From NCBI GenBank assembly GCA_039809385.1, contig JBDHUY010000020.1, positions 1-25,635 on the forward strand: 25,635 bases of DNA, in the 5' to 3' direction. Positions 1 through 25,635 of the stretch are shown here, piece by piece. The stretch is from Candidatus Altimarinota bacterium (lineage in GTDB: Bacteria > Patescibacteriota > Gracilibacteria > JBDHUY01). A program made the translations under genes and the position numbers. The notes beneath the pieces are model-generated. The model had not been told where the DNA came from and made no database searches. It worked only from the letters and a program-made list of their open reading frames with translations. Each line of letters starts with the position of its first letter. The first letter of the stretch is position 1.

Positions 1-285
1 GCAGAGTATATGAGGATAAAGATATGAGGAATGTTTGTATAGATGTATAGTATTTGTTTAGAGGTTAGTATTTCGAATTTAGAAATTTTCTCATCGGGGT
101 GTGGCGCAATTGGCTAGCGCGTCCCGACGTGAGTGTCGGGAAGGCTATGGGTTTAAGTCCTGATGCAGAGTATATGAGGATAAAGATATGAGGAATGTTT
201 GTATAGATGTATAGTATTTGTTTAGAGGTTAGTATTTCGAATTTAGAAATTTTCTCATCGGGGTGTGGCGCAATTGGCTAGCGCG
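1..285 (+). repeat. Tandem duplication with 164-bp period (1-121 identical to 165-285), covering the upstream region and 5' part of tRNA-Pro(GGG); may extend left of the window
   Basis: GCAGAGTATATGAGG... at position 1 recurs at 165; identity runs to ...GGCTAGCGCG (121/285). Confidence 0.95.
95..160 (+). pseudogene. Pseudo-tRNA-Pro(GGG) with anticodon arm replaced by hairpin TCCCGACGTGAGTGTCGGGA; truncated after the T-loop
   Basis: 95-121 equals tRNA 259-285; 122-141 is a foreign hairpin; 142-160 matches tRNA 303-321 with 2 mismatches; no 3' acceptor strand or CCA. Confidence 0.9.
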
Positions 286-18025: not shown

Positions 18026-18850
18026 TTATTTTGAAGATCTTGATGCCAGGAGCGGCTCGTACATCATAATCGCATCGTTGCGTGTGACAAGCTCTTCGCT
18101 GACTTTTTTCCTCTCCTCTCTGTTGTAACCGATTTTGTAGAGTTCGTTATGCCGGGTATATCCGCCCCAGCTCTCGTGTTCGATCCGGTGTTGTTTTTCT
18201 ACAACCTCATAGAGGACTTCTGCCTGTGTGTCCGCTCGCCATGCTCCGACCAGGTATTCTTTGGTGAAAGAAATTTCTAGCTGGAACGTGGCCGCGGTGT
18301 CGTTTCTTATCTGAAGATCGATATTCGGATAGGAGCAGGTGGCGCCGGAACCAAAGGGTTGCATTCTGGCACTGTCCGGAAAAACGTCGTAGCTGTGTCT
18401 CCAGCGTTCGAGTACGGTGAGTGGCGTGTGTAAGGTTATCCAATAGATCAGGTTGGATAACTGGCACAGTCCTCCCCCGGTTCCGGCCCGGACTTGTCCT
18501 TGGTAGAGAATCATGCCGTCCACATATCCTCTGGCTTTGGTCGGTTTGCCGATGATGCGCCAGTATGAAAAAACTTCTCCTGGGTGTATCAGCAGACCGC
18601 TCATCTTTGCTGCCGCCAGTCGCAGGTTACGGATTTTATTGTGTTGCATCCACATTTCCACGTTTTTCAACCGGCGTAGCAGCAAACTTTGATGCCGGTA
18701 GATTTCATAGGGAAGCAGTTCTTTTGTGCTTTGGATTGCAAATTTTTCTCTCGAAAAATGCCAGTACAGCTGTTTCTTTATCCAAAAATAAATACCTCCC
18801 CAGAATATCCGTATACCTGAACGCGCAATAGGTTTTTGCATACTATACAT
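18026..18850 (-). CDS. VanW-family protein
   Basis: NLRLAA, PGEVFSYW, GGGLCQLSNLIYW, ERWRHS, DLQIRN. Confidence 0.9.
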   Translation of the reverse strand: MYSMQKPIARSGIRIFWGGIYFWIKKQLYWHFSREKFAIQSTKELLPYEIYRHQSLLLRRLKNVEMWMQHNKIRNLRLAAAKMSGLLIHPGEVFSYWRIIGKPTKARGYVDGMILYQGQVRAGTGGGLCQLSNLIYWITLHTPLTVLERWRHSYDVFPDSARMQPFGSGATCSYPNIDLQIRNDTAATFQLEISFTKEYLVGAWRADTQAEVLYEVVEKQHRIEHESWGGYTRHNELYKIGYNREERKKVSEELVTRNDAIMMYEPLLASRSSK

Positions 18851-19854
18851 TATATCACAAAATCTTGTTTCTGCTGCTTTGGATAGATTTGCCGGGATGG
18901 ATGAAAACTCCGGGTTGTCAGGGGAATTCCGGCCTGTTCCGCCAGGTTTTGTATCGCCGGGTCGGCTGCATGTGCCGAACGTACAAAGAAAAACTCACAG
19001 TCGTAGGTGTCGTCAATGAACTTGCGGTTTCGGTAAGCCAGATTGAGTTGTGTATCCGCAAAAGGTTTCCCGTCGGGTTCCGGCGTGAGCCAATCCGGAA
19101 TGGAGTATTTGTCGGTAACAATAAAGATAAAGTCAAAATCGGAAAACAAACTCCCCCGAAATCCGGGGGCTTGATATTGACCAAAAGATCCTTTAACCGA
19201 GGATCCGATCAGCAGTATCTTTTCGATCTCCGGGGCGGGTAAAAAGACATTTTCAATCTTTTGAATTGCTTTCGTTCTAAGCTCGTTCTGCAATTGTAAC
19301 GGGAAGATGGTTTTATGGGGGCGATTTTTCAGATGGTTTTCCATTGATCTGACAGATTTCACTTTTTGCAGAAAAACCAGATCCCTCTCTGTGATAAACG
19401 TTCCCTCGAAATTATTCGGCGTGTCGTGTTCTAATACAGCAATTGCTTGATCCAAGGTCATCCATTGTAATTGAAAGTTGTCCGCGAGTTCGCCTTCGGT
19501 AAACTCCGGGGTTCCTTTCGTGCCTACTCGACCGTAATAACAATAGGAAGTTTGTTTTACATCCCCATGAGAAAAGTTCTTTCCCGAGCGATATTCTATG
19601 ATTATTCCGACTTCGCCGTTTACTTCAATCTCGCATCCGGTTTCTTCGCGAACTTCCCGTCGTAATGCTTCTATTTTTCCCTCATCGGTTTCTATTCCGC
19701 CGCCTGGCAATTTGTGGTATTGATGTTTTGCTACAAACAGCAAAGGAATACATTCTTGATCGTCAAATACCACTGCGCGAGCAGCCTCTCTCAGGGTGAC
19801 GTTCGAATCTTCATGTGGGTATAGATCGTCCTTTATCTCCTTCAGCAGCTCCAT
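18850..19854 (-). CDS. NUDIX hydrolase fused to a nucleotidyltransferase-like (Pol beta superfamily) domain
   Basis: Nudix box GGGIETDEGKIEALRREVREETGC; C-terminal LLIGSSVKG...SDFDFIF (GS...DxD). Confidence 0.8.
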   Translation of the reverse strand: MELLKEIKDDLYPHEDSNVTLREAARAVVFDDQECIPLLFVAKHQYHKLPGGGIETDEGKIEALRREVREETGCEIEVNGEVGIIIEYRSGKNFSHGDVKQTSYCYYGRVGTKGTPEFTEGELADNFQLQWMTLDQAIAVLEHDTPNNFEGTFITERDLVFLQKVKSVRSMENHLKNRPHKTIFPLQLQNELRTKAIQKIENVFLPAPEIEKILLIGSSVKGSFGQYQAPGFRGSLFSDFDFIFIVTDKYSIPDWLTPEPDGKPFADTQLNLAYRNRKFIDDTYDCEFFFVRSAHAADPAIQNLAEQAGIPLTTRSFHPSRQIYPKQQKQDFVI

Positions 19855-19863
19855 ATTCGCACT

Positions 19864-20001
19864 TTACATTGTTGCAGTTGTCATACCTCTATTGTGTTCT
19901 TCCAATCTCTTGGCTGTATTCATGGTAGAACCAATATAATACTGGCCTATAATACTGGCCGTTTTTCTACTTTTCAAAATATAAACAAATCCTAGATCAA
20001 T
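19864..20001 (-). pseudogene. Truncated GIY-YIG nuclease remnant
   Basis: Reads IDLGFVYILKSRKTASIIGQYYIGSTMNTAKRLEEHNRGMTTATM*; homologous to the 24412 and 25434 genes; 13-bp tandem duplication at 19935-19960; no canonical start. Confidence 0.9.
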
Positions 20002-20021
20002 AGTCGAGCTATCTTTTCAGA

Positions 20022-20055
20022 AAGATGGTCGGCCTTTCAAACCACAACTCGAACC
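20022..20055 (-). other. att-like site mimicking the tRNA-Pro 3' end (GGTTC-N18-CCGACCA on the - strand)
   Basis: 26/34 ungapped identity with 24437-24470; shares ATGGTCGG with the tRNA and pseudo-tRNA 3' ends. Confidence 0.65.
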
Positions 20056-20180
20056 GAATGCCAAAAGGTTATGGGAAATTGAGGATAAAGCAATCGACCT
20101 GACGATTAAGGGGTTGAGAGTGTATTTAATTGGGAGAGATTCGGATGTGAATTTTTTGAAGAAACAAACAGAGGAAAATT

Positions 20181-21668
20181 TTAAAAAACTGATGGAATGA
20201 GATTAATATCTACCACATCATCATTCACGATTTTATCTAATACATCCTCAAGGTGCTCCTTCATTTTCTTCATTGATTTATCAAGTTCAACAATACCAAC
20301 CTCTTCATTCCACCTTTGATCTTCTTCTAGAAAGTTTTTTAAGTTCAAAGATTTTGGATAATTGGTAGGATTATGATACAGGGTAGCTATTTCTTTTTGT
20401 TTTGGTTCCGAAAAATTGGGAAATGGAATAATCCCCCAATATTTCATAGCCAAACTTCCACCATTACCACCAACTGCATACAAATCAACTAATCCAACGT
20501 TTCTTAAATAATCTAAGAAACATTTGATAAAAACAGATAGTGTTATGTTTCCTTTGGTATGGTTTATAGTAACACCATGAATATTTGTAATGGTCTTATC
20601 TCTATCTTTTAATATAACCATCGACCTGCCTTTTTCAAATCCTTCAGCCCCCAAAATAATATCTCCTGCTTTAAGAGTTTTTAGTTCTTTGGGATTTCCT
20701 AAATATTCCTGTGAAAATGCTGTTCCATACTGTGATAAATGTTTCGGTTTTATTACTGTATAAAAGTTGTCTTTGTAATCATTTGAATAAATACTTTTAC
20801 CTATGCAAGAAACTTGTAAATTTTGCCCCCTACTAATCTTAAATCCCATACTTTTTATATCTGAAAAACCTAGTTTATAATTTTTAATTATGTACTCATT
20901 ACTTAGAAAATACTTTGAATAAAATCCCGCATTTATACGGTTGAATTTCTGTAATTCTTTAATTTTTGGTAAAGAATATTCAAAAATTTTGTCTTTTTGA
21001 TTTTCTAAAAGCTCTTTTTCAATTTTTTTTAAAATTTGCTCGTGTTTTTTCCGAATCCCCTTTTCCTTATTGATAATTGCTTGAGTTAGAAGCTCCACAT
21101 AAGCAATTACATCATCTTTGTTAGCTTGATTCGGAAATGGAATTTTACAATCCAAAAATAAAGTTTTTGCGTGTCTTATAGTAGATCCTTTGGGAACCAT
21201 CAAATCCAGTTGATTCAGAAAATATTTGTGCTTCAAAAAAGCAAATAGATAATATTTATTTTGCGTTACTGGTAATTTATATAAAGCTCCTGAAAGTGTA
21301 TGATTTGGTAAATCTTGGTCTAAAATAACAACTTCACCAATATTTGAATCTTTAGAAATTAAAATATCACCTTGTTTCAAATCAAAATTAGTAAAAACTT
21401 GTGGACGAATAGGAATAGCCGTCTCTTCTGTTAGAAATGGTAAAAAAGATTCTTTTTGTAATGCCTTTGATCTAATAAAATATTTAGGTGATTTATAGAT
21501 ATAATTTACAGAACCGACTTCGTTTCCGTTATCGGAAAATTTAAATTTCCTACTCAACAAATTGTTCACAAGCAATTTATTTTGATTTGGCACGCTTAAG
21601 GTTGTTAGCTGACTTGGAGCTAAATTGTACTTATTGCTGACGATGTCTTTGTAGGTAGCAACAGGCAT
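20181..21668 (-). CDS. Restriction-modification specificity (HsdS-like) subunit
   Basis: Two TRD-like halves (LKQGDILISKDSNIG...KGSTIRH...IPFP; LKAGDIILGAEG...IPFPN) with helical spacers; starts 1 nt after the MTase stop. Confidence 0.8.
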   Translation of the reverse strand: MPVATYKDIVSNKYNLAPSQLTTLSVPNQNKLLVNNLLSRKFKFSDNGNEVGSVNYIYKSPKYFIRSKALQKESFLPFLTEETAIPIRPQVFTNFDLKQGDILISKDSNIGEVVILDQDLPNHTLSGALYKLPVTQNKYYLFAFLKHKYFLNQLDLMVPKGSTIRHAKTLFLDCKIPFPNQANKDDVIAYVELLTQAIINKEKGIRKKHEQILKKIEKELLENQKDKIFEYSLPKIKELQKFNRINAGFYSKYFLSNEYIIKNYKLGFSDIKSMGFKISRGQNLQVSCIGKSIYSNDYKDNFYTVIKPKHLSQYGTAFSQEYLGNPKELKTLKAGDIILGAEGFEKGRSMVILKDRDKTITNIHGVTINHTKGNITLSVFIKCFLDYLRNVGLVDLYAVGGNGGSLAMKYWGIIPFPNFSEPKQKEIATLYHNPTNYPKSLNLKNFLEEDQRWNEEVGIVELDKSMKKMKEHLEDVLDKIVNDDVVDINLIPSVF

Positions 21669-21669
21669 A

Positions 21670-23847
21670 TTATTTCTCTTTTATAAATAGATCTTGTAGT
21701 GCTTTTTCTTGACCTAAGCACCATTTTTTGAAATGAGAAATTGTTTCAGTGAACTCTTCGTCTATCAAAGGAGTTCCCTCTTCGTTTTGCTCTATTTCAA
21801 AAGTCTGTTCATTGATTTTGTAGATTGGATTGAAGTATTTTATCCTCTTTGAGGTTCTCACTTCATACCCTACTTTTTTTATGTCTTTTACAAAAACATC
21901 ATAATTTGATTCTTTCAATTTTTGTAATTCACTTTCTTTTGGCTTATATGCCACGATTAGAGTTGTATTTACTCCAGTATCGGCAAACACATTCGGTGGC
22001 AAATCAAACAAAGCCACTATTCTCATTTTTTCCATAAGCCATGCCCTAGCCTTCTTCCATCTATCAATTGAAGCGATAGAATTTGAAACAATAATTCCCA
22101 TTCTTCCCCCTTCTCCTAAAATACGATATGAGTTTTCCAAAAATACTATTCCTAAATCTATCCACTTTCCACTTCTTGCAATATCCCAAAGTTCGTACAT
22201 TTCAGCTTGTTCTTTTTCTGACTGTGTTTTCGGTTCCCACTTTCTATCTTCTCCGAATGGTGGATTTGTCAGAACTACATCAAACTTTTTTAACTTGGTT
22301 TGATCTTTCCAATTATCCCAATTCCCAGCTTTGTGTAAGTTTGGTTGCAATTCTACGAGATTATTTCTATCATCGAATTTCCAAGTGATAGATCCTTTGT
22401 CTGGTTTATACTTTAAAACAGCATTTCCATCTCCATTTAAAAGCATATTCAATTGTGCAAGCATTATCATTTGCTCATCATTATCAACTCCATAGATGTT
22501 GTTGTCATCTAGCCGACTATTAGAGTTAACATATGATACAGAAAGAAAATCCGCAATTCCGCTTGTTGGGTCAATGATTTTTTCAGTGCTTCTCGGGTTT
22601 ACAATTTGTACAAGAAAATCAATTAATGGAATAGGGGTAATAAATTGCCCTTTGTCACTTTTAGAAAATTCGTTAGCAAATTTATAGAAAACAATTTGGT
22701 ACAAATCCGTTTTATGTGATAAAACGAAACTGTAATCCTGAAACTGCTCTACAACCTCACTAATAATTTGAATATGTACAGGATTGTCCCAGCTAATGGT
22801 TTCTGTATCTTTCCTTTTCAATATATAGTGATATTTTGCTGAAGCTTCATTGTATAATTGTCTTAGTCTTTCAATAAATTGTTGTATTTCTTCATCTCCC
22901 AAATTTGTGTGGATTTTTTCTTCTTTTGTTATGTAAAACAGTAAATTAAGCTTTTTAGTTTCGGGATCACTTTTATAAAAATCTAAAAACTTTTTAGGAT
23001 CTGAATTTAAGCTTCTTTTTTCGTCAAAAATTTTAAGGGCCATGATTTGAATAAGAATTTCATAACCTCTTTGGTTTTTCATTCCTATTTTATCCATTAC
23101 CCTCAAGATATTTGAAATACCATCCGTTAATTGTTTACTGTAAATACCTGTAACAATATCAAGATCATCAATGGTTCTTTGTGATCTATCTATGGTAACT
23201 TGAGTGATTTTTTTCTGTAATTGTTCAAAAGAAGGAATCTTGTAGTAAGCATCCGTAAGATGTAATGATAAATCTTTGGTAGTGCTTTTTTCACCTTTCA
23301 AATTAAAAGATTCATCGAGTCTTAAATAGTTATTTTGTTTTCTTTGAAATAAATAAAGCCTTTCCGTGTCATACAAAACTCCTAAACAAAAATCATTTTC
23401 AGATTCTTTAATAGCTGGTTTAAGTTGTTGGTTGTAAACAGTTTCAATATCTTTTGAATCTTCTTTTTTAAATTCAATAACTCCAAGCAAATGACTCCTC
23501 AGCCAGTCTAAAGATTCTTGATCTTTGTTCTGATGATATTTTTTGTACCAATCAAACCAATTTGGATCATCAAAAATTGCTCCATCCAGTTTTATAGGGG
23601 CAGAGTTTTTATTCCCCTTTGGAAAATACACCTCGCACCCCAAATAATCTTTTTGATACAAGCCAGAATGCACTAAGGCGTAGAAAAACTGCCACTTGTA
23701 GTATTCTTCATTCGTCTCACCTTTCTTATTTTTGATGGCATAATTTTCAGATAACTTCTGATTTACAGGAATAAATGCTGTAAATTCTTTGGCAGAGGAA
23801 TACTTACGATCAAAATCCTGTTTGGCTTGTAAGAAGGTTCCTAGCAT
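21670..23847 (-). CDS. Fused restriction endonuclease / N6-adenine methyltransferase (Type IIB/IIG-like, BcgI-alpha-like architecture)
   Basis: GQFITP, motif I IIDPTSGIADFL, motif IV LTNPPFG; N-terminal E..LD..IEFK PD-(D/E)XK-like motif. Confidence 0.85.
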   Translation of the reverse strand: MLGTFLQAKQDFDRKYSSAKEFTAFIPVNQKLSENYAIKNKKGETNEEYYKWQFFYALVHSGLYQKDYLGCEVYFPKGNKNSAPIKLDGAIFDDPNWFDWYKKYHQNKDQESLDWLRSHLLGVIEFKKEDSKDIETVYNQQLKPAIKESENDFCLGVLYDTERLYLFQRKQNNYLRLDESFNLKGEKSTTKDLSLHLTDAYYKIPSFEQLQKKITQVTIDRSQRTIDDLDIVTGIYSKQLTDGISNILRVMDKIGMKNQRGYEILIQIMALKIFDEKRSLNSDPKKFLDFYKSDPETKKLNLLFYITKEEKIHTNLGDEEIQQFIERLRQLYNEASAKYHYILKRKDTETISWDNPVHIQIISEVVEQFQDYSFVLSHKTDLYQIVFYKFANEFSKSDKGQFITPIPLIDFLVQIVNPRSTEKIIDPTSGIADFLSVSYVNSNSRLDDNNIYGVDNDEQMIMLAQLNMLLNGDGNAVLKYKPDKGSITWKFDDRNNLVELQPNLHKAGNWDNWKDQTKLKKFDVVLTNPPFGEDRKWEPKTQSEKEQAEMYELWDIARSGKWIDLGIVFLENSYRILGEGGRMGIIVSNSIASIDRWKKARAWLMEKMRIVALFDLPPNVFADTGVNTTLIVAYKPKESELQKLKESNYDVFVKDIKKVGYEVRTSKRIKYFNPIYKINEQTFEIEQNEEGTPLIDEEFTETISHFKKWCLGQEKALQDLFIKEK

Positions 23848-24075
23848 GCTTTTTAGTTAAAAACTACACACAGTTTACTTGAAGAAAATAAAAAGCCAAT
23901 AACATTTTATCTCGAACCACCTGCCAAAAGCTGAAATACTGCTTCGCAAAGCCATATTATAAAAATACGCTGGACTATTTTTCCAAAAGGTTCATAGTTC
24001 AAAACTCGCGAATAACCGCCCAAAAAAGCCTTATTCAACACATATTCCTAAATAAGACTTTCTGCTGTAATTAAA

Positions 24076-24143
24076 TGGTCGGGGATGCGGGACTTGAACC
24101 CGCGACCTTCCCGACGGGAGCGTCGGGACGCGCTAGCCAACTG
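24076..24143 (-). pseudogene. Pseudo-tRNA-Pro(CGG): D-loop to CCA retained, anticodon arm replaced by hairpin TCCCGACGCTCCCGTCGGGA
   Basis: Identical to tRNA 25452-25528 on both sides of the 20-nt hairpin (24109-24128); lacks the 5' acceptor strand. Confidence 0.93.
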
Positions 24144-24145
24144 GC

Positions 24146-24412
24146 TTAATTCATTTTAATTACTTGATCTCGAATGATCTTCTCCAGATAATCACGTCTT
24201 TTCATTTTCTTGAGGAGCTGCTCTATTTTACGCGCTTGAGGGATAGATGGGTATTGTTGTTGAAATACAATTGTCCAAGGTCCTTTATTACGGGTTGAAA
24301 TGGTTGTTCCGGAATTATGCTCGTGTAATCTCTTTTGAGTATCCATGGTAGAACCAATATAATATTGACCACTTTTTCTACTTTGCAAAATGTACACAAA
24401 CCCTTGAACCAT
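24146..24412 (-). CDS. Small stand-alone GIY-YIG nuclease (UPF0213/YhbQ-like), copy 2
   Basis: GFVYIL...YYIGST, KRLHEHN, ARKIEQLLKKMK; 88 aa. Confidence 0.92.
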   Translation of the reverse strand: MVQGFVYILQSRKSGQYYIGSTMDTQKRLHEHNSGTTISTRNKGPWTIVFQQQYPSIPQARKIEQLLKKMKRRDYLEKIIRDQVIKMN

Positions 24413-24436
24413 AAAGGCGAGATCTTATTTCTTGAG

Positions 24437-24470
24437 AAGATGGTCGGCCTGATGAACCACAGAGTGAACC
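24437..24470 (-). other. att-like site mimicking the tRNA-Pro 3' end (GGTTC-N18-CCGACCA on the - strand)
   Basis: Paralog of 20022-20055; its CCA ends 28 nt upstream of GIY-YIG copy 2. Confidence 0.65.
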
Positions 24471-24580
24471 TGCAACTACATGCTGTACGCCGCTTATTGA
24501 AGAGGCATTGTACGAATTAAAAGCATATTTCGACCAGTCAAATTCTACGGGATTTGAGCAATTTTACAAGATGGTTAAAA

Positions 24581-25063
24581 TTACAACTTCTTAATCATCC
24601 CTATCATTCTATCTTGATAATCAGATTTTTTGTAAAAATTATGAGCACTTATGTTTGGAACAAATACTTCAACCCAAGCAGTATCACATCGTTTGAGTCG
24701 AAAATATTCTTCTATTTTATTCATTAAAGCAGTGCCAATTTTCTTTCCTCGATGCTCACTACTTACAACAAGCTCAATAATGTTGCCAACTTTGGATTCA
24801 ATATGATCAACTTTATCTACATCAGTTTGTTTTTCAATTATCCCAGCCACCATTCCAACAGCAGCTTCATCAATTTTCGCAATATAGATCATTCCTTCCC
24901 TACTCTGTATTTTTTTCAGTAAATCATCTACATAGACTTTTCCATATGTAGATGGTCTTTTCAATCGTTTTAGCGGATCAATTTCTACTAAAAAGTCTTG
25001 TAATTGTTCCATTAAACTAACAAGACTTTCTTTATCACTACTATATTCAACTATTTTTACCAT
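24581..25063 (-). CDS. GNAT-family N-acetyltransferase
   Basis: IIELVVSSEHRGKKIGTALM (acetyl-CoA motif A), NISAHNFYKK; start placed at ATG 25063. Confidence 0.92.
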   Translation of the reverse strand: MVKIVEYSSDKESLVSLMEQLQDFLVEIDPLKRLKRPSTYGKVYVDDLLKKIQSREGMIYIAKIDEAAVGMVAGIIEKQTDVDKVDHIESKVGNIIELVVSSEHRGKKIGTALMNKIEEYFRLKRCDTAWVEVFVPNISAHNFYKKSDYQDRMIGMIKKL

Positions 25064-25097
25064 AGAATTAGATTGAATTGTTTGTCTTGACAATCAA

Positions 25098-25165
25098 TGG
25101 TCGGGGATGCGGGACTTGAACCCGCGACCTTCCCGACGGGAGCGTCGGGACGCGCTAGCCAACTG
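25098..25165 (-). pseudogene. Pseudo-tRNA-Pro(CGG) with hairpin-replaced anticodon arm (identical to 24076-24143)
   Basis: Hairpin at 25131-25150; flanks match the intact tRNA. Confidence 0.93.
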
Positions 25166-25167
25166 GC

Positions 25168-25434
25168 TTAATTCATTTTAATTACTTGATCTCGAATGAT
25201 CTTCTCCAGATAATCACGTCTTTTCATTTTCTTGAGGAGCTGCTCTATTTTACGCGCTTGAGGGATAGATGGGTATTGTTGTTGAAATACAATTGTCCAA
25301 GGTCCTTTATTACGGGTTGAAATGGTTGTTCCGGAATTATGCTCGTGTAATCTCTTTGTAGTATCAATAGTAGAACCAATGTAATATTGGCCTGTTTTTT
25401 CACTTCTGAGGATATAAATAAAACCTGGTCTCAT
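25168..25434 (-). CDS. Small stand-alone GIY-YIG nuclease, copy 1
   Basis: GFIYIL...YYIGST, KRLHEHN; starts 17 nt after the tRNA CCA. Confidence 0.92.
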   Translation of the reverse strand: MRPGFIYILRSEKTGQYYIGSTIDTTKRLHEHNSGTTISTRNKGPWTIVFQQQYPSIPQARKIEQLLKKMKRRDYLEKIIRDQVIKMN

Positions 25435-25451
25435 AACTGTACTTCATACAA

Positions 25452-25528
25452 TGGTCGGGGATGCGGGACTTGAACCCGCGACCTCGTCGTCCCGAACGAC
25501 GCGCGCTAGCCAACTGCGCTAATCCCCG
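25452..25528 (-). tRNA. tRNA-Pro(CGG)
   Basis: Reverse complement is 77 nt; acceptor CGGGGAT/ATCCCCG, anticodon stem CGTCG/CGACG with loop TTCGGGA, GGTTCAAGTCC, CCA. Confidence 0.96.
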
Positions 25529-25609
25529 TTAATGGCTCACTATTTGATAGTGATAGTATGGTATTATTTTCGAGATAGTAACGTAACGATCGGTCTACCT
25601 TCGCCCAAT

Positions 25610-25635
25610 GACTTGAACCCGCGACCTCCCCGACG
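25610..25635 (-). pseudogene. Partial pseudo-tRNA-Pro(CGG) copy, cut by the window edge and 3'-truncated after the T-loop
   Basis: GACTTGAACCCGCGACCT matches the tRNA, then CCCCGACG follows, matching the hairpin arm (TCCCGACG, 1 mismatch) rather than the native anticodon arm. Confidence 0.75.

What the first reader, a model, noticed from the sequence alone, without database searches (positions are those of the whole stretch)
19864..25528. Integrase-free cassette array downstream of tRNA-Pro(CGG): repeated [CCGACCA > GIY-YIG > pseudo-tRNA > cargo]
Seen on the - strand: tRNA > GIY-YIG > pseudo-tRNA > GNAT > att-like site > GIY-YIG > pseudo-tRNA > RM operon > att-like site > GIY-YIG remnant. Every GIY-YIG copy begins 17-28 nt after a CCGACCA end. 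Both intact copies run from their stop codon almost directly into a pseudo-tRNA. Each cargo block is bounded by a direct ATGGTCGG core. No recombinase ORF is recognisable in the window. Inference: a tandem GIY-YIG/pseudo-tRNA array supplies spare tRNA-3'-end landing pads into which cargo (defence, acetyltransferase) integrates, giving an integron-like hotspot that leaves the real tRNA intact.
Basis: partly seen in the sequence, partly recalled or inferred. Interest (0 to 1): 0.88.

Follow-up and report, generated by a model that had tools for sequence, protein, structure and literature searches.

The report
Selfish nuclease cassettes stacked at tRNA-Pro
A tiny nuclease gene that settles beside transfer-RNA genes and leaves hairpin-marked tRNA fragments is stacked three times here with two acquired gene blocks in between; this kind of element is widespread and I found no description of it, but an integron-like capture system is not shown.

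Summary
On the minus strand: tRNA-Pro(CGG), GIY-YIG, truncated tRNA copy, GNAT, decayed tRNA 3' end, GIY-YIG, truncated tRNA copy, DNA methylase plus specificity gene, decayed tRNA 3' end, GIY-YIG remnant.

It is a local case of something general. 88-aa UPF0213/Slx1-like GIY-YIG genes abut a co-oriented tRNA or tmRNA in 55 of 86 homologue hits fetched elsewhere, never only an opposite-strand one. They are flanked by partial tRNA copies, usually with a GC hairpin in place of the anticodon arm (stem often TCCCG[A/C]...[T/G]CGGGA). Homologues occur in 91 of 151 genomes of the class and in several phyla. Protein clades follow tRNA isotype across phyla. Two genera hold empty and occupied alleles, one also a tandem allele.

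Best reading: self-propagating tRNA-nested nuclease cassettes, with two low-GC blocks inserted between them. Each block is flanked by imperfect repeats of the tRNA 3' end.

No recombinase lies on the contig. None of 92 other loci shows a distant tRNA-fragment copy or distant second unit of the kind that brackets cargo. Reads show no alternative forms. The integron-like reading is therefore unproven. A 262-nt perfect repeat makes the GNAT block a 1,022-bp loop that could recombine in or out.

The parts
25610..25635 (-). 3' half of a 5' tRNA-Pro fragment (hairpin 3' arm, variable loop, T-stem and T-loop), cut by the contig end. It is one unit of a tandem array with a 147-nt period that continues on contig C25.
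   Evidence: (loop 'goes back 121' plus 26 letters)
25529..25609 (-). Spacer between the 5' fragment and the real tRNA. Its tRNA-proximal part repeats the tRNA's own 5' flank.
25452..25528 (-). Intact tRNA-Pro(CGG), the only CGG isoacceptor found in the assembly.
   Evidence: Rfam tRNA 65.3 bits
25168..25434 (-). GIY-YIG#1: 88-aa UPF0213/Slx1-like nuclease gene, 17 nt after the tRNA's CCA.
25098..25165 (-). 3' tRNA fragment C1: tRNA positions 13-27, 8-bp hairpin (25131-25150) in place of the anticodon arm, then positions 45-77 identical to the real tRNA.
24581..25093 (-). Cargo 1: GNAT acetyltransferase (170 aa). It starts 4 nt after C1. GC is about 0.35.
24441..24485 (-). Decayed tRNA 3' part (variable loop to CCGACCA, with a 5-nt insertion) at the right edge of cargo 1, upstream of GIY-YIG#2.
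   Evidence: not scored by Rfam
24146..24412 (-). GIY-YIG#2, a mosaic gene. Its first 77 nt and its upstream region resemble unit #3. From 24335 downwards it is identical to unit #1.
24076..24143 (-). 3' tRNA fragment C2 (hairpin 24109-24128), identical to C1.
21670..23847 (-). Cargo 2a: 725-aa protein with an N6-adenine DNA methylase domain at residues about 380-680. The N-terminal part is unassigned.
   Evidence: 64%-identical homologue in G208
20181..21668 (-). Cargo 2b: 495-aa type-I-like specificity subunit.
   Evidence: (21.8 bits, just under Pfam's cut-off of 22)
20026..20065 (-). Decayed tRNA 3' part (T-loop-like stretch to CCGACCA) at the right edge of cargo 2.
   Evidence: (D7)
19858..20001 (-). 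GIY-YIG#3 remnant: N-terminal 44 codons with a 12-nt duplication, no start codon and a stop. It is truncated against the NUDIX gene.
24074..24335 (.). 262-nt perfect repeat, also at 25096-25357. It makes 24336-25357 a 1,022-bp loop: GIY#2 N-terminus, decayed tRNA end, GNAT, and one copy of the repeat.
   Evidence: (D1)

Best explanation
The locus is a stack of tRNA-nested selfish cassettes.

Each cassette holds an 88-aa, catalytic-domain-only GIY-YIG nuclease gene (UPF0213 family; nearest characterised relative is the SLX1 structure-specific nuclease domain). The gene abuts a tRNA gene on the same strand. With it comes a partial copy of that tRNA whose anticodon arm is replaced by a tight GC hairpin. 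The cassette enters the cognate tRNA gene at an edge of the anticodon arm and carries the duplicated tRNA part, so an intact tRNA is always kept.
- Form 1: 5' fragment, nuclease gene, tRNA.
- Form 2: tRNA, nuclease gene, 3' fragment.

Inferred steps. Entry is by recombination or break repair through the tRNA homology the cassette carries, perhaps stimulated by the nuclease. The gene is expressed by read-through from the tRNA promoter. Arrays grow by repeated entry or unequal crossing-over.

At this tRNA-Pro(CGG) there are three generations of cassette. The oldest is a remnant. Two have been homogenised over 262 nt. Two foreign low-GC blocks lie between them (GNAT; methylase plus specificity subunit). 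Each block is bounded by imperfect direct repeats of the tRNA 3' part, the usual footprint of insertion at a tRNA 3' end.

Most economical history: cassettes and blocks hit the same hotspot in turn, newest next to the tRNA. No dedicated cassette-capture machinery is needed.
For: Shown by tool results.

1. Family. Pfam GIY-YIG E 2.9e-13. A profile of 5 sequences hits PDB UPF0213 proteins 1zg2 (3.1e-11) and 1ywl (5.9e-09), SLX1 at 0.003, and I-TevI only at 0.44. Y7, Y18, G20, R28, H32 and E64 are invariant in the 5-sequence alignment.

2. tRNA adjacency.
- Own genome: all 7 matches lie beside a tRNA, tmRNA or tRNA fragment.
- Class set: 25 of 31 hits have a same-strand tRNA or tmRNA within 150 nt.
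- Genome-wide set: 30 of 55 do.
- None has only an opposite-strand one.
- Several of the 31 misses are inner members of tandem arrays. A 9-row clade has no tRNA at all.
- Metagenome contigs: 11 of 16 loci have an adjacent same-strand tRNA.

3. Partial tRNA copies flank the gene in most loci: positions 1 to about 27 upstream, about 44-77 downstream.

4. Hairpins with a CCCG stem: 0.75 per kb within 450 nt of the gene against 0.04 per kb elsewhere, in 47 loci; 20 of the 47 have at least one.

5. Empty against occupied alleles with the same 5' flank.
- G114 empty; G085 and G105 occupied (tRNA-Pro(TGG)).
- G011 empty; G112 single; G028 tandem double (tRNA-Ala(GGC)).

6. Protein clades follow tRNA isotype across phyla: 33 label changes against 61.5 in shuffles, 0 of 200 as low. 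Relatives share labels, so this overstates.

7. Tandem arrays occur elsewhere: L028, L053, L058, L069, L072.

8. Window. Unit #2 is a mosaic: 54/80 identity to #3 against 38/80 to #1 upstream, then a 262-nt exact match to #1. Cargo GC is low. Cargo edges are given.

9. A contig from an independent run bridges NUDIX, remnant and specificity gene (X4 record 12, 18777-20645, no differences). A second study holds the same junction in two abutting pieces.
Against: - No nuclease activity or target is shown.
- The protein has no DNA-binding domain, unlike I-TevI or the Seg enzymes.
- The intact tRNA in occupied alleles has the same anticodon arm as in empty alleles. The classic 'target destroyed by insertion' immunity of homing endonucleases is therefore not met.
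- The role of the hairpin is unknown.
- Tandem tRNA-fragment arrays without any nuclease gene flank both tRNA-Pro loci of this contig. Eleven of 47 tRNA loci in the genome have fragments, but only two of those have a GIY-YIG gene. The fragments may therefore arise independently of the nuclease.
- 5' and 3' fragments in one locus share nearly the same hairpin and overlap. Two independent one-sided insertions do not explain that.
- No close relative of this particular locus was found, so the order of events here is inferred.
- The order across the 262-nt repeat rests on the original assembly.
Confidence: 0.55

Rival explanations
1. The tRNA fragments behind each GIY-YIG gene are working attachment sites for an integrase encoded elsewhere. 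Integrase-free cargo cassettes are inserted there, sparing the real tRNA, as in an integron.
For: - Each cargo block is flanked by imperfect direct repeats of the tRNA 3' part sharing the core CCGACCAT.
- The fragments keep positions 45-77 identical to the real tRNA.
- Both blocks are too small to be self-mobile and have low GC.
- The right-end repeats of the two blocks resemble each other: 26 of 40 alignment columns.
- The genome encodes two serine and two tyrosine recombinases on other contigs.
Against: - No recombinase is on the contig.
- The genome's recombinases show no link to tRNA-Pro. No other copy of the cargo flanks exists in the genome.
- None of the 76 loci tested has a distant tRNA-fragment copy. 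None of the 16 metagenome loci shows a second co-oriented unit at a distance.
- Cargo homologues elsewhere are not at GIY-YIG or tRNA sites, apart from one tRNA about 1 kb away in 1 of 16 loci.
- No circle or empty-site junction has adequate support.
- The same layout arises if the blocks entered the real tRNA and cassettes were inserted afterwards.
Confidence: 0.15
2. Cargo rides on the cassette by homologous recombination. The 1,022-bp loop (GNAT plus GIY-YIG plus tRNA fragment) pops out as a circle and re-enters through the 262-nt repeat or the 33-nt tRNA identity. The nuclease/tRNA-fragment module thus acts as portable homology that carries passenger genes into tRNA loci.
For: - A 262-nt exact repeat brackets the GNAT block, spacing 1,022 nt.
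- Unit #2 is a recombinant mosaic.
- Cassette lineages keep to one tRNA isotype across phyla, as expected if entry depends on tRNA homology.
Against: - No junction of a circle or of the deleted form was seen in contigs of four runs.
- No such cargo-bearing unit was seen in the other loci.
- The methylase block is not bracketed by long identical repeats.
Confidence: 0.15
3. The small GIY-YIG genes are ordinary host genes that have settled in tRNA transcription units. The tRNA fragments with hairpins are RNA-level elements (mRNA end protection, processing signals). They were made by local duplication at replication-transcription conflict sites, and nothing is mobile.
For: - Strict co-orientation with the tRNA: 55 adjacent cases, none opposite-only.
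- The fragment folds into three stable hairpins (z -2.1 and -3.3).
- In one clade the T-stem GGAGG sits 7 nt before the start codon, like a ribosome-binding site.
- Fragment arrays exist without the gene.
Against: - Empty, single and tandem alleles occur within one genus.
- Protein clades tied to one tRNA isotype are spread over different phyla.
- Pseudogenised copies exist.
- The same hairpin stem turns up at different tRNAs and in different phyla.
Confidence: 0.1
4. Assembly artefact. Low-GC blocks from another organism were joined in through the repeated units of a metagenome-assembled genome.
For: - The window is a whole contig of a 26-contig assembly. Both ends break in repeats.
- A 262-nt perfect repeat lies inside the array.
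Against: - A 1,869-nt contig from another run spans NUDIX, remnant and specificity gene without a difference.
- Pieces identical to the window (no differences), at low depth like those on the flanks, cover GNAT and the methylase block in two studies.
- Unit #3 and its decayed tRNA end tie the methylase block to host sequence.
Confidence: 0.05

Closest known systems
Phage T4 SegB, a free-standing GIY-YIG homing endonuclease in the tRNA gene cluster (PMC2330249; abstract read)
   Same: A GIY-YIG gene sits among tRNA genes. By the abstract, its recognition site includes the conserved T-stem-loop motif of tRNA genes, and its own gene spreads together with neighbouring tRNA genes. Here the 5' tRNA fragments end in the T-stem or T-loop.
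   Different: SegB is a phage protein with more than a catalytic domain (recalled, not tested). The proteins here are 80-110 aa, of the UPF0213/Slx1-like branch, chromosomal, flanked by hairpin-bearing tRNA fragments and often tandem. There was no tblastn match in 50,697 phage records at E 1e-3.
Free-standing homing endonuclease genes of fungal mitochondria that duplicate part of the host gene on insertion (recalled; only search listings seen)
   Same: The insertion brings a replacement piece of the interrupted gene. The gene stays intact and the displaced piece remains as a fragment.
   Different: Those sit in protein-coding genes of organelles. Here the host gene is a bacterial tRNA, and the fragment carries a conserved hairpin in place of the anticodon arm.
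tRNA-targeting genomic islands (integrase-mediated)
   Same: Foreign, low-GC DNA is bounded by direct repeats of the tRNA 3' end.
   Different: No integrase lies in or near the blocks. The blocks are 0.6 and 4 kb. The left repeat is a tRNA fragment belonging to a nuclease cassette.
Integrons
   Same: Co-oriented, recombinase-free gene blocks lie in series at one site.
   Different: No intI, no attI or attC, no evidence of cassette turnover. The repeated units carry their own nuclease gene.
SLX1 / UPF0213 (BH0048, EF2693) GIY-YIG proteins
   Same: Sequence family of the 88-aa protein.
   Different: SLX1 acts with SLX4 in eukaryotic DNA repair. The bacterial UPF0213 structures carry no assigned function in the PDB titles. 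I found no paper linking them to tRNA genes.

Membership tests
GIY-YIG nuclease superfamily, UPF0213 branch | GIY and YIG motifs with the conserved Arg and Glu of the catalytic core, plus a sequence match to the family | tested here: met
   Pfam PF01541 50.4 bits against a cut-off of 22.6. Y7, Y18, G20, R28, H32 and E64 invariant in 5 sequences. PDB 1zg2 3.1e-11 and 1ywl 5.9e-09.
Homing endonuclease gene (free-standing) | Presence/absence polymorphism at one genomic site among close relatives | tested here: met
   G114 empty against G085 and G105 occupied. G011 empty, G112 single, G028 double.
Homing endonuclease gene (free-standing) | Site-specific cleavage of the empty allele | not testable with these tools
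   Needs the purified protein and target DNA.
Homing endonuclease gene (free-standing) | Target site disrupted or altered in the occupied allele (self-immunity) | tested here: not met
   The intact tRNA of occupied alleles has the same anticodon arm as the empty allele. In the tRNA-Pro(TGG) pair the rest differs by one base in the variable loop. Only the fragments are altered.
Homing endonuclease gene (free-standing) | DNA-binding domain beside the catalytic domain | tested here: not met
   88 aa, with one Pfam domain covering residues 4-73.
Integron | Integron integrase next to the array | tested here: not met
   PF00589 and PF00239 hits lie only on contigs C2, C3 and C13.
Integron | Cassettes ending in attC-type recombination sites | tested here: not met
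   Block ends are tRNA-derived repeats. Rfam scores only the real tRNA over its cut-off.
Integron | Cassette content varies between relatives at fixed boundaries | tested here: inconclusive
   The only holders are the same strain, from 4 runs in 2 studies. No close relative of the locus was found. No distant fragment copy in 76 loci and no distant second unit in 16 metagenome loci.
tRNA-integrated genomic island | Direct repeats of the tRNA 3' end at both island ends | tested here: met
   Imperfect repeats from T-loop to CCA with the shared core CCGACCAT at both blocks.
tRNA-integrated genomic island | Island-encoded integrase | tested here: not met
   None on the contig.
Restriction-modification system | Methylase together with a restriction nuclease | tested here: inconclusive
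   Methylase and specificity subunit found. No nuclease domain was recognised. The N-terminal part of the 725-aa protein is unassigned.

The most novel reading that the evidence does not exclude
A minimal Slx1-like nuclease, a hairpin-substituted tRNA fragment and the tRNA gene together form a self-propagating module that uses the universal conservation of tRNA sequence as portable homology. The nuclease acts next to its own gene and keeps the tRNA locus recombinogenic. Cassettes therefore multiply, hop between phyla to the same tRNA isotype, and occasionally trap passenger genes. The 1,022-bp GNAT loop would be such a passenger-bearing unit, able to leave and enter by recombination.
Probability: 0.2. 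Interest if true: 0.8.

Novelty: new variant of a known kind. Interest (0 to 1): 0.62.

Why it matters
- **Annotation.** If these cassettes are what they seem, a large share of the many small 'GIY-YIG nuclease family protein' genes in Patescibacteria, Bacteroidota, Ignavibacteria and other phyla are selfish elements living inside tRNA transcription units.
- **Assembly.** They would explain tRNA fragments, tandem tRNA-like repeats and contig breaks at tRNA genes in such genomes.
- **Mechanism.** They offer a compact system: an 88-aa nuclease, a 17-20-nt hairpin and a tRNA. It could show how a catalytic-domain-only nuclease finds a target, and how an essential gene is kept intact during invasion.
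- **This locus.** tRNA hotspots can stack several kinds of insertion, which can mimic an ordered cassette array.

Tried and rejected
- A coordinate slip (a stop codon inside the range) was corrected.
- The NUDIX neighbour gave only distant homologues in 31 relatives, so no syntenic locus was available.
- The metagenome scan with the single protein found nothing. With the alignment it gave 16 loci, none closer than 60% identity and none with a second co-oriented unit at a distance.
- tblastn against phage records: no match.
- Rfam at E up to 10 scored only the real tRNA and a T-arm piece. It cannot confirm the fragments or the decayed ends as tRNA-derived.
- Reads:
  - 'goes back 354' (X4) and 'goes back 121' (X7) are loops expected from the repeats, not circles.
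  - 'skips 1075' (X5) has a 22-letter side and 33 foreign letters, so it is probably another organism.
  - No well-supported empty-site or circle junction was seen.
  - The GNAT and GIY#2 N-terminal bins have roughly half the depth of neighbouring bins in X1 and X4. The tool states that contig depth cannot rank parts, so I draw nothing from it.
- The promoter and terminator scan was at chance level: 30 found against 22.0 ± 5.7, and 3 against 3.2.
- Models considered and dropped:
  - A transposon-like staggered cut with a 35-50-nt target duplication. The 'insert' contains host-specific flank.
  - A hairpin formed anew as a repair scar. The same stem recurs across tRNAs and phyla.
- The short + strand ORFs starting at ATGGTCGG were rejected as coding. 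The shared similarity is only the roughly 34-nt tRNA-derived stretch.
- Seven literature searches found no paper on chromosomal small GIY-YIG genes at bacterial tRNA genes. Subscription journals and supplements were not searched.
Full report
**1. What is in the window**

The window is the whole 25,635-bp contig C20 of a 1.87-Mb, 26-contig assembly with GC about 0.46. Its closest GIY-YIG relatives lie in MAGs labelled Patescibacteria or Woesebacteria.

- tRNA-Pro(CGG) 25528-25452
- GIY-YIG#1 25434-25168
- a truncated tRNA copy, 25165-25098
- GNAT 25093-24581
- CCGACCA at 24447-24441
- GIY-YIG#2 24412-24146
- a second truncated copy, 24143-24076
- a 725-aa methylase protein and a 495-aa specificity-like protein, 23847-20181
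- CCGACCA at 20032-20026
- a GIY-YIG remnant, about 20001-19858
- a NUDIX gene

CCGACCA occurs 11 times against 2.24 expected; 0 of 100 shuffles reach 11.

The truncated copies consist of tRNA positions 13-27, an 8-bp GC hairpin where the anticodon arm should be, and positions 45-77 identical to the real tRNA. The two 'att-like' sites align with the real tRNA from the variable loop or T-loop to CCA, so they are decayed tRNA 3' parts. Rfam does not score them.

The methylase block has GC 0.27-0.35 and GNAT about 0.35. The 'RM operon' is methylase plus specificity subunit, and no restriction nuclease was recognised. No tyrosine- or serine-recombinase domain lies on the contig. The genome has two of each on C2, C3 and C13.

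**2. The units belong to a general phenomenon**

*Own genome.* All 7 matches to the protein lie beside a tRNA, a tmRNA or a tRNA fragment:
- the three of this array;
- one 18 nt after tRNA-Met, followed by a tRNA-Met fragment and a duplicate of the gene's own start;
- one after tRNA-Tyr;
- one after the tmRNA;
- a broken one between tRNA-Val and tRNA-Ala.

*Spread.* In the class, 91 of 151 genomes have a match at E ≤ 1e-5.

*Adjacency.* Of the hits in fetched loci, 25 of 31 (class set) and 30 of 55 (genome-wide set, several phyla) have a same-strand tRNA or tmRNA within 150 nt. None has only an opposite-strand one. Several misses are inner members of tandem arrays. Nine rows form a clade without any tRNA, from Campylobacterota, Spirochaetota, Flavobacteriaceae, Lachnospiraceae and one unclassified MAG. 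Of 16 metagenome contigs, 11 show the same adjacency.

*The protein.* It belongs to the UPF0213 branch. PDB hits are 1zg2 at 3.1e-11, 1ywl at 5.9e-09, the SLX1 nuclease domain at 0.003, and I-TevI only at 0.44. The catalytic-core residues are invariant in five sequences.

**3. Common architecture**

The gene and one intact tRNA lie side by side in either order. They are bracketed by:
- a 5' fragment: positions 1 to about 27, a hairpin, then about 44 to 53-62;
- and/or a 3' fragment: about 13-28 onward, a hairpin, then 44-77.

The hairpin usually replaces the anticodon arm. In some loci further hairpins sit in the D- or T-loop.

Its stem is often TCCCG[A/C]...[T/G]CGGGA, at different tRNAs and in different phyla. 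Hairpins with a CCCG stem occur at 0.75 per kb within 450 nt of the gene against 0.04 per kb elsewhere in 47 loci. Twenty of the 47 have at least one.

The window's closest relatives (51-55% identity) also sit at tRNA-Pro and carry nearly the same hairpin stem. The hairpin is therefore inherited with the cassette.

**4. Evidence for mobility**

- *Genus g17.* G114 has the plain tRNA-Pro(TGG) behind the same 5' flank (80% identity over 607 nt). G085 and G105 carry 5' fragment, GIY, tRNA and a 3' fragment. The difference is an insertion at tRNA position 27/28 that carries a second copy of positions 1-27.
- *Genus g12.* G011 has the plain tRNA-Ala(GGC). G112 has 5' fragment, tRNA, GIY and 3' fragment. 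G028 has two tandem GIY units.
- *Tree.* In a tree of 86 proteins, clades follow tRNA isotype across phyla. An 8-row tRNA-Ser clade spans four phyla. Overall there are 33 label changes against 61.5 in shuffles, with 0 of 200 as low. Relatives share labels, so this overstates. Both arrangements occur within single clades.
- *Arrays.* Tandem arrays occur in L028, L053, L058, L069 and L072.

**5. What speaks against a textbook homing endonuclease**

- The protein is a bare catalytic domain.
- The intact tRNA of occupied alleles keeps the same anticodon arm as the empty allele, so the insertion does not destroy an obvious target.
- 5' and 3' fragments of one locus overlap and share the hairpin.
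- Fragment arrays exist without the gene. The minus-strand continuation of this array lies at the start of contig C25: at least four units of fragment plus 80-nt spacer, period 147. A similar array with period 161 lies upstream of tRNA-Pro(GGG) at the window start and at the end of C26.
- Eleven of 47 tRNA loci of the genome have fragments nearby, but only two of those have a GIY gene.

I therefore call it a selfish, tRNA-nested cassette. Its entry most likely runs through the tRNA homology it carries. Whether the nuclease makes the initiating break is inferred, not shown.

**6. The cargo**

Units #1 and #2 share an exact 262-nt repeat (24074-24335 and 25096-25357). It ends 2 nt past the CCA of the fragment. 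Upstream of it, unit #2 resembles unit #3 (54/80 identity) more than unit #1 (38/80). Unit #2 is thus a recombinant.

Each cargo block starts right after a fragment's CCA and ends at a decayed tRNA 3' part. This is the footprint of insertion at a tRNA 3' end. The footprint does not say whether the hit copy was the real tRNA, with a cassette inserted later between them, or the fragment.

Evidence bearing on a general capture function:
- None of the 76 fetched loci L014-L089 has a tRNA-fragment copy more than 450 nt from its unit.
- The 16 metagenome loci were not put through that test. Their lists of GIY hits, tRNAs and hairpins show no second co-oriented unit at a distance.
- Seven GNAT and nine methylase homologue loci, plus an 18-kb stretch around the 64%-identical methylase pair in G208, show no GIY gene. 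They show only one tRNA, about 1 kb from a GNAT.
- No other copy of the cargo flanks exists in the genome.

**7. Reads**

Ten runs hold part of the stretch. I laid four, from two studies of activated sludge and wastewater. They hold the same strain as short, low-depth contigs.

One 1,869-nt contig bridges NUDIX, remnant and specificity gene without a difference. A second study has the same junction in two abutting pieces. The blocks are therefore not an assembly chimera.

No well-supported empty site, circle or alternative cargo was seen. The two 'goes back' joints are graph loops caused by the repeats. The order across the 262-nt repeat cannot be checked with these contigs. The 1,022-bp stretch carrying GNAT could be present in 0, 1 or more copies per cell.

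**8. Comparison and novelty**

The nearest known case is phage T4 SegB. It is a GIY-YIG enzyme in a tRNA cluster whose recognition site includes the conserved T-stem-loop motif, and it spreads its own gene with neighbouring tRNA genes (abstract of PMC2330249). Fungal mitochondrial endonuclease genes that duplicate part of the host gene are a second analogue; this is recalled, as I saw only search listings.

Seven searches found no paper on chromosomal small GIY-YIG genes at bacterial tRNA genes. In the 2006 superfamily survey (PMC1564403) I searched only four terms. The three passages with 'tRNA' concern other matters. Supplements and subscription journals were not searched.

**Verdict**
- The integron-like interpretation is partly supported at most.
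- The underlying cassette family is a new variant of a known kind and is the more interesting result.

Noticed in passing
window 95-141 and 1-258; contig C26 10740-11039: Upstream of tRNA-Pro(GGG) (259-335, + strand) lie tandem units with a 161-nt period. Each has tRNA positions 1-27, a TCCCGA-stem hairpin, a decayed T-arm and a copy of the tRNA's 5' flank, with no GIY-YIG gene. The array runs off the contig start and matches the end of C26.
   Followed up: partly
contig C25 1-709 (minus strand): At least four 147-nt units (5' tRNA-Pro(CGG) fragment with hairpin, plus 80-nt spacer), and a first, different unit directly after a protein-coding gene. This is the continuation of the window's minus strand beyond 25635, so C25 and C20 are neighbours.
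   Followed up: partly
genome G000, 11 of 47 tRNA loci: Partial tRNA copies lie within 2 kb of tRNA-Ser(TGA), His, Lys(CTT), Leu(CAA), Asp, Phe, Leu(GAG), Ile, Met and the two tRNA-Pro loci. At tRNA-Ile (C23 18151-18196) the fragment is followed by the same hairpin stem as in the window. Only two of these loci have a GIY-YIG gene.
   Followed up: partly
G000 C3:177021-179577: A large serine recombinase (641-aa frame) and a weak tyrosine-recombinase match lie next to tRNA-Gln(CTG) at the end of contig C3. This may be an integrated element at another tRNA.
   Followed up: no
G000 C11:16893-17042: A GIY-YIG homologue with an in-frame TGA lies between tRNA-Val and tRNA-Ala. In the class search several genomes show 1-4 in-frame TGA in their copies (for example G029, G088, G144). 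These are either pseudogenes or lineages that read TGA as sense.
   Followed up: no
window 24230-24939 (table 2): In runs X1 and X4 the bins covering the GIY#2 N-terminus and GNAT have roughly half the summed contig depth of the bins on either side. The tool warns that contig depth cannot rank parts, so this is only a pointer to test whether the 1,022-bp loop is missing in part of the population.
   Followed up: no
L129 11777-12106: Five TCCCGC-stem hairpins with a 78-nt period lie beside tRNA-Arg(TCT) in a metagenome contig, without a GIY-YIG gene there. This is another gene-less hairpin array.
   Followed up: no
window 21670-23847; L100 (G208:C3): About the first 250 residues of the 725-aa methylase protein match no family. 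The best PADLOC and NCBIfam names are the methylase and specificity parts of 'MADS', far below their cut-offs. A 64%-identical pair sits in G208 in an unrelated context.
   Followed up: partly
L014, L016 (G105, G085): In the tRNA-Pro(TGG) cassettes the GGAGG of the fragment's T-stem lies 7 nt before the GIY-YIG start codon, where a ribosome-binding site would be.
   Followed up: no
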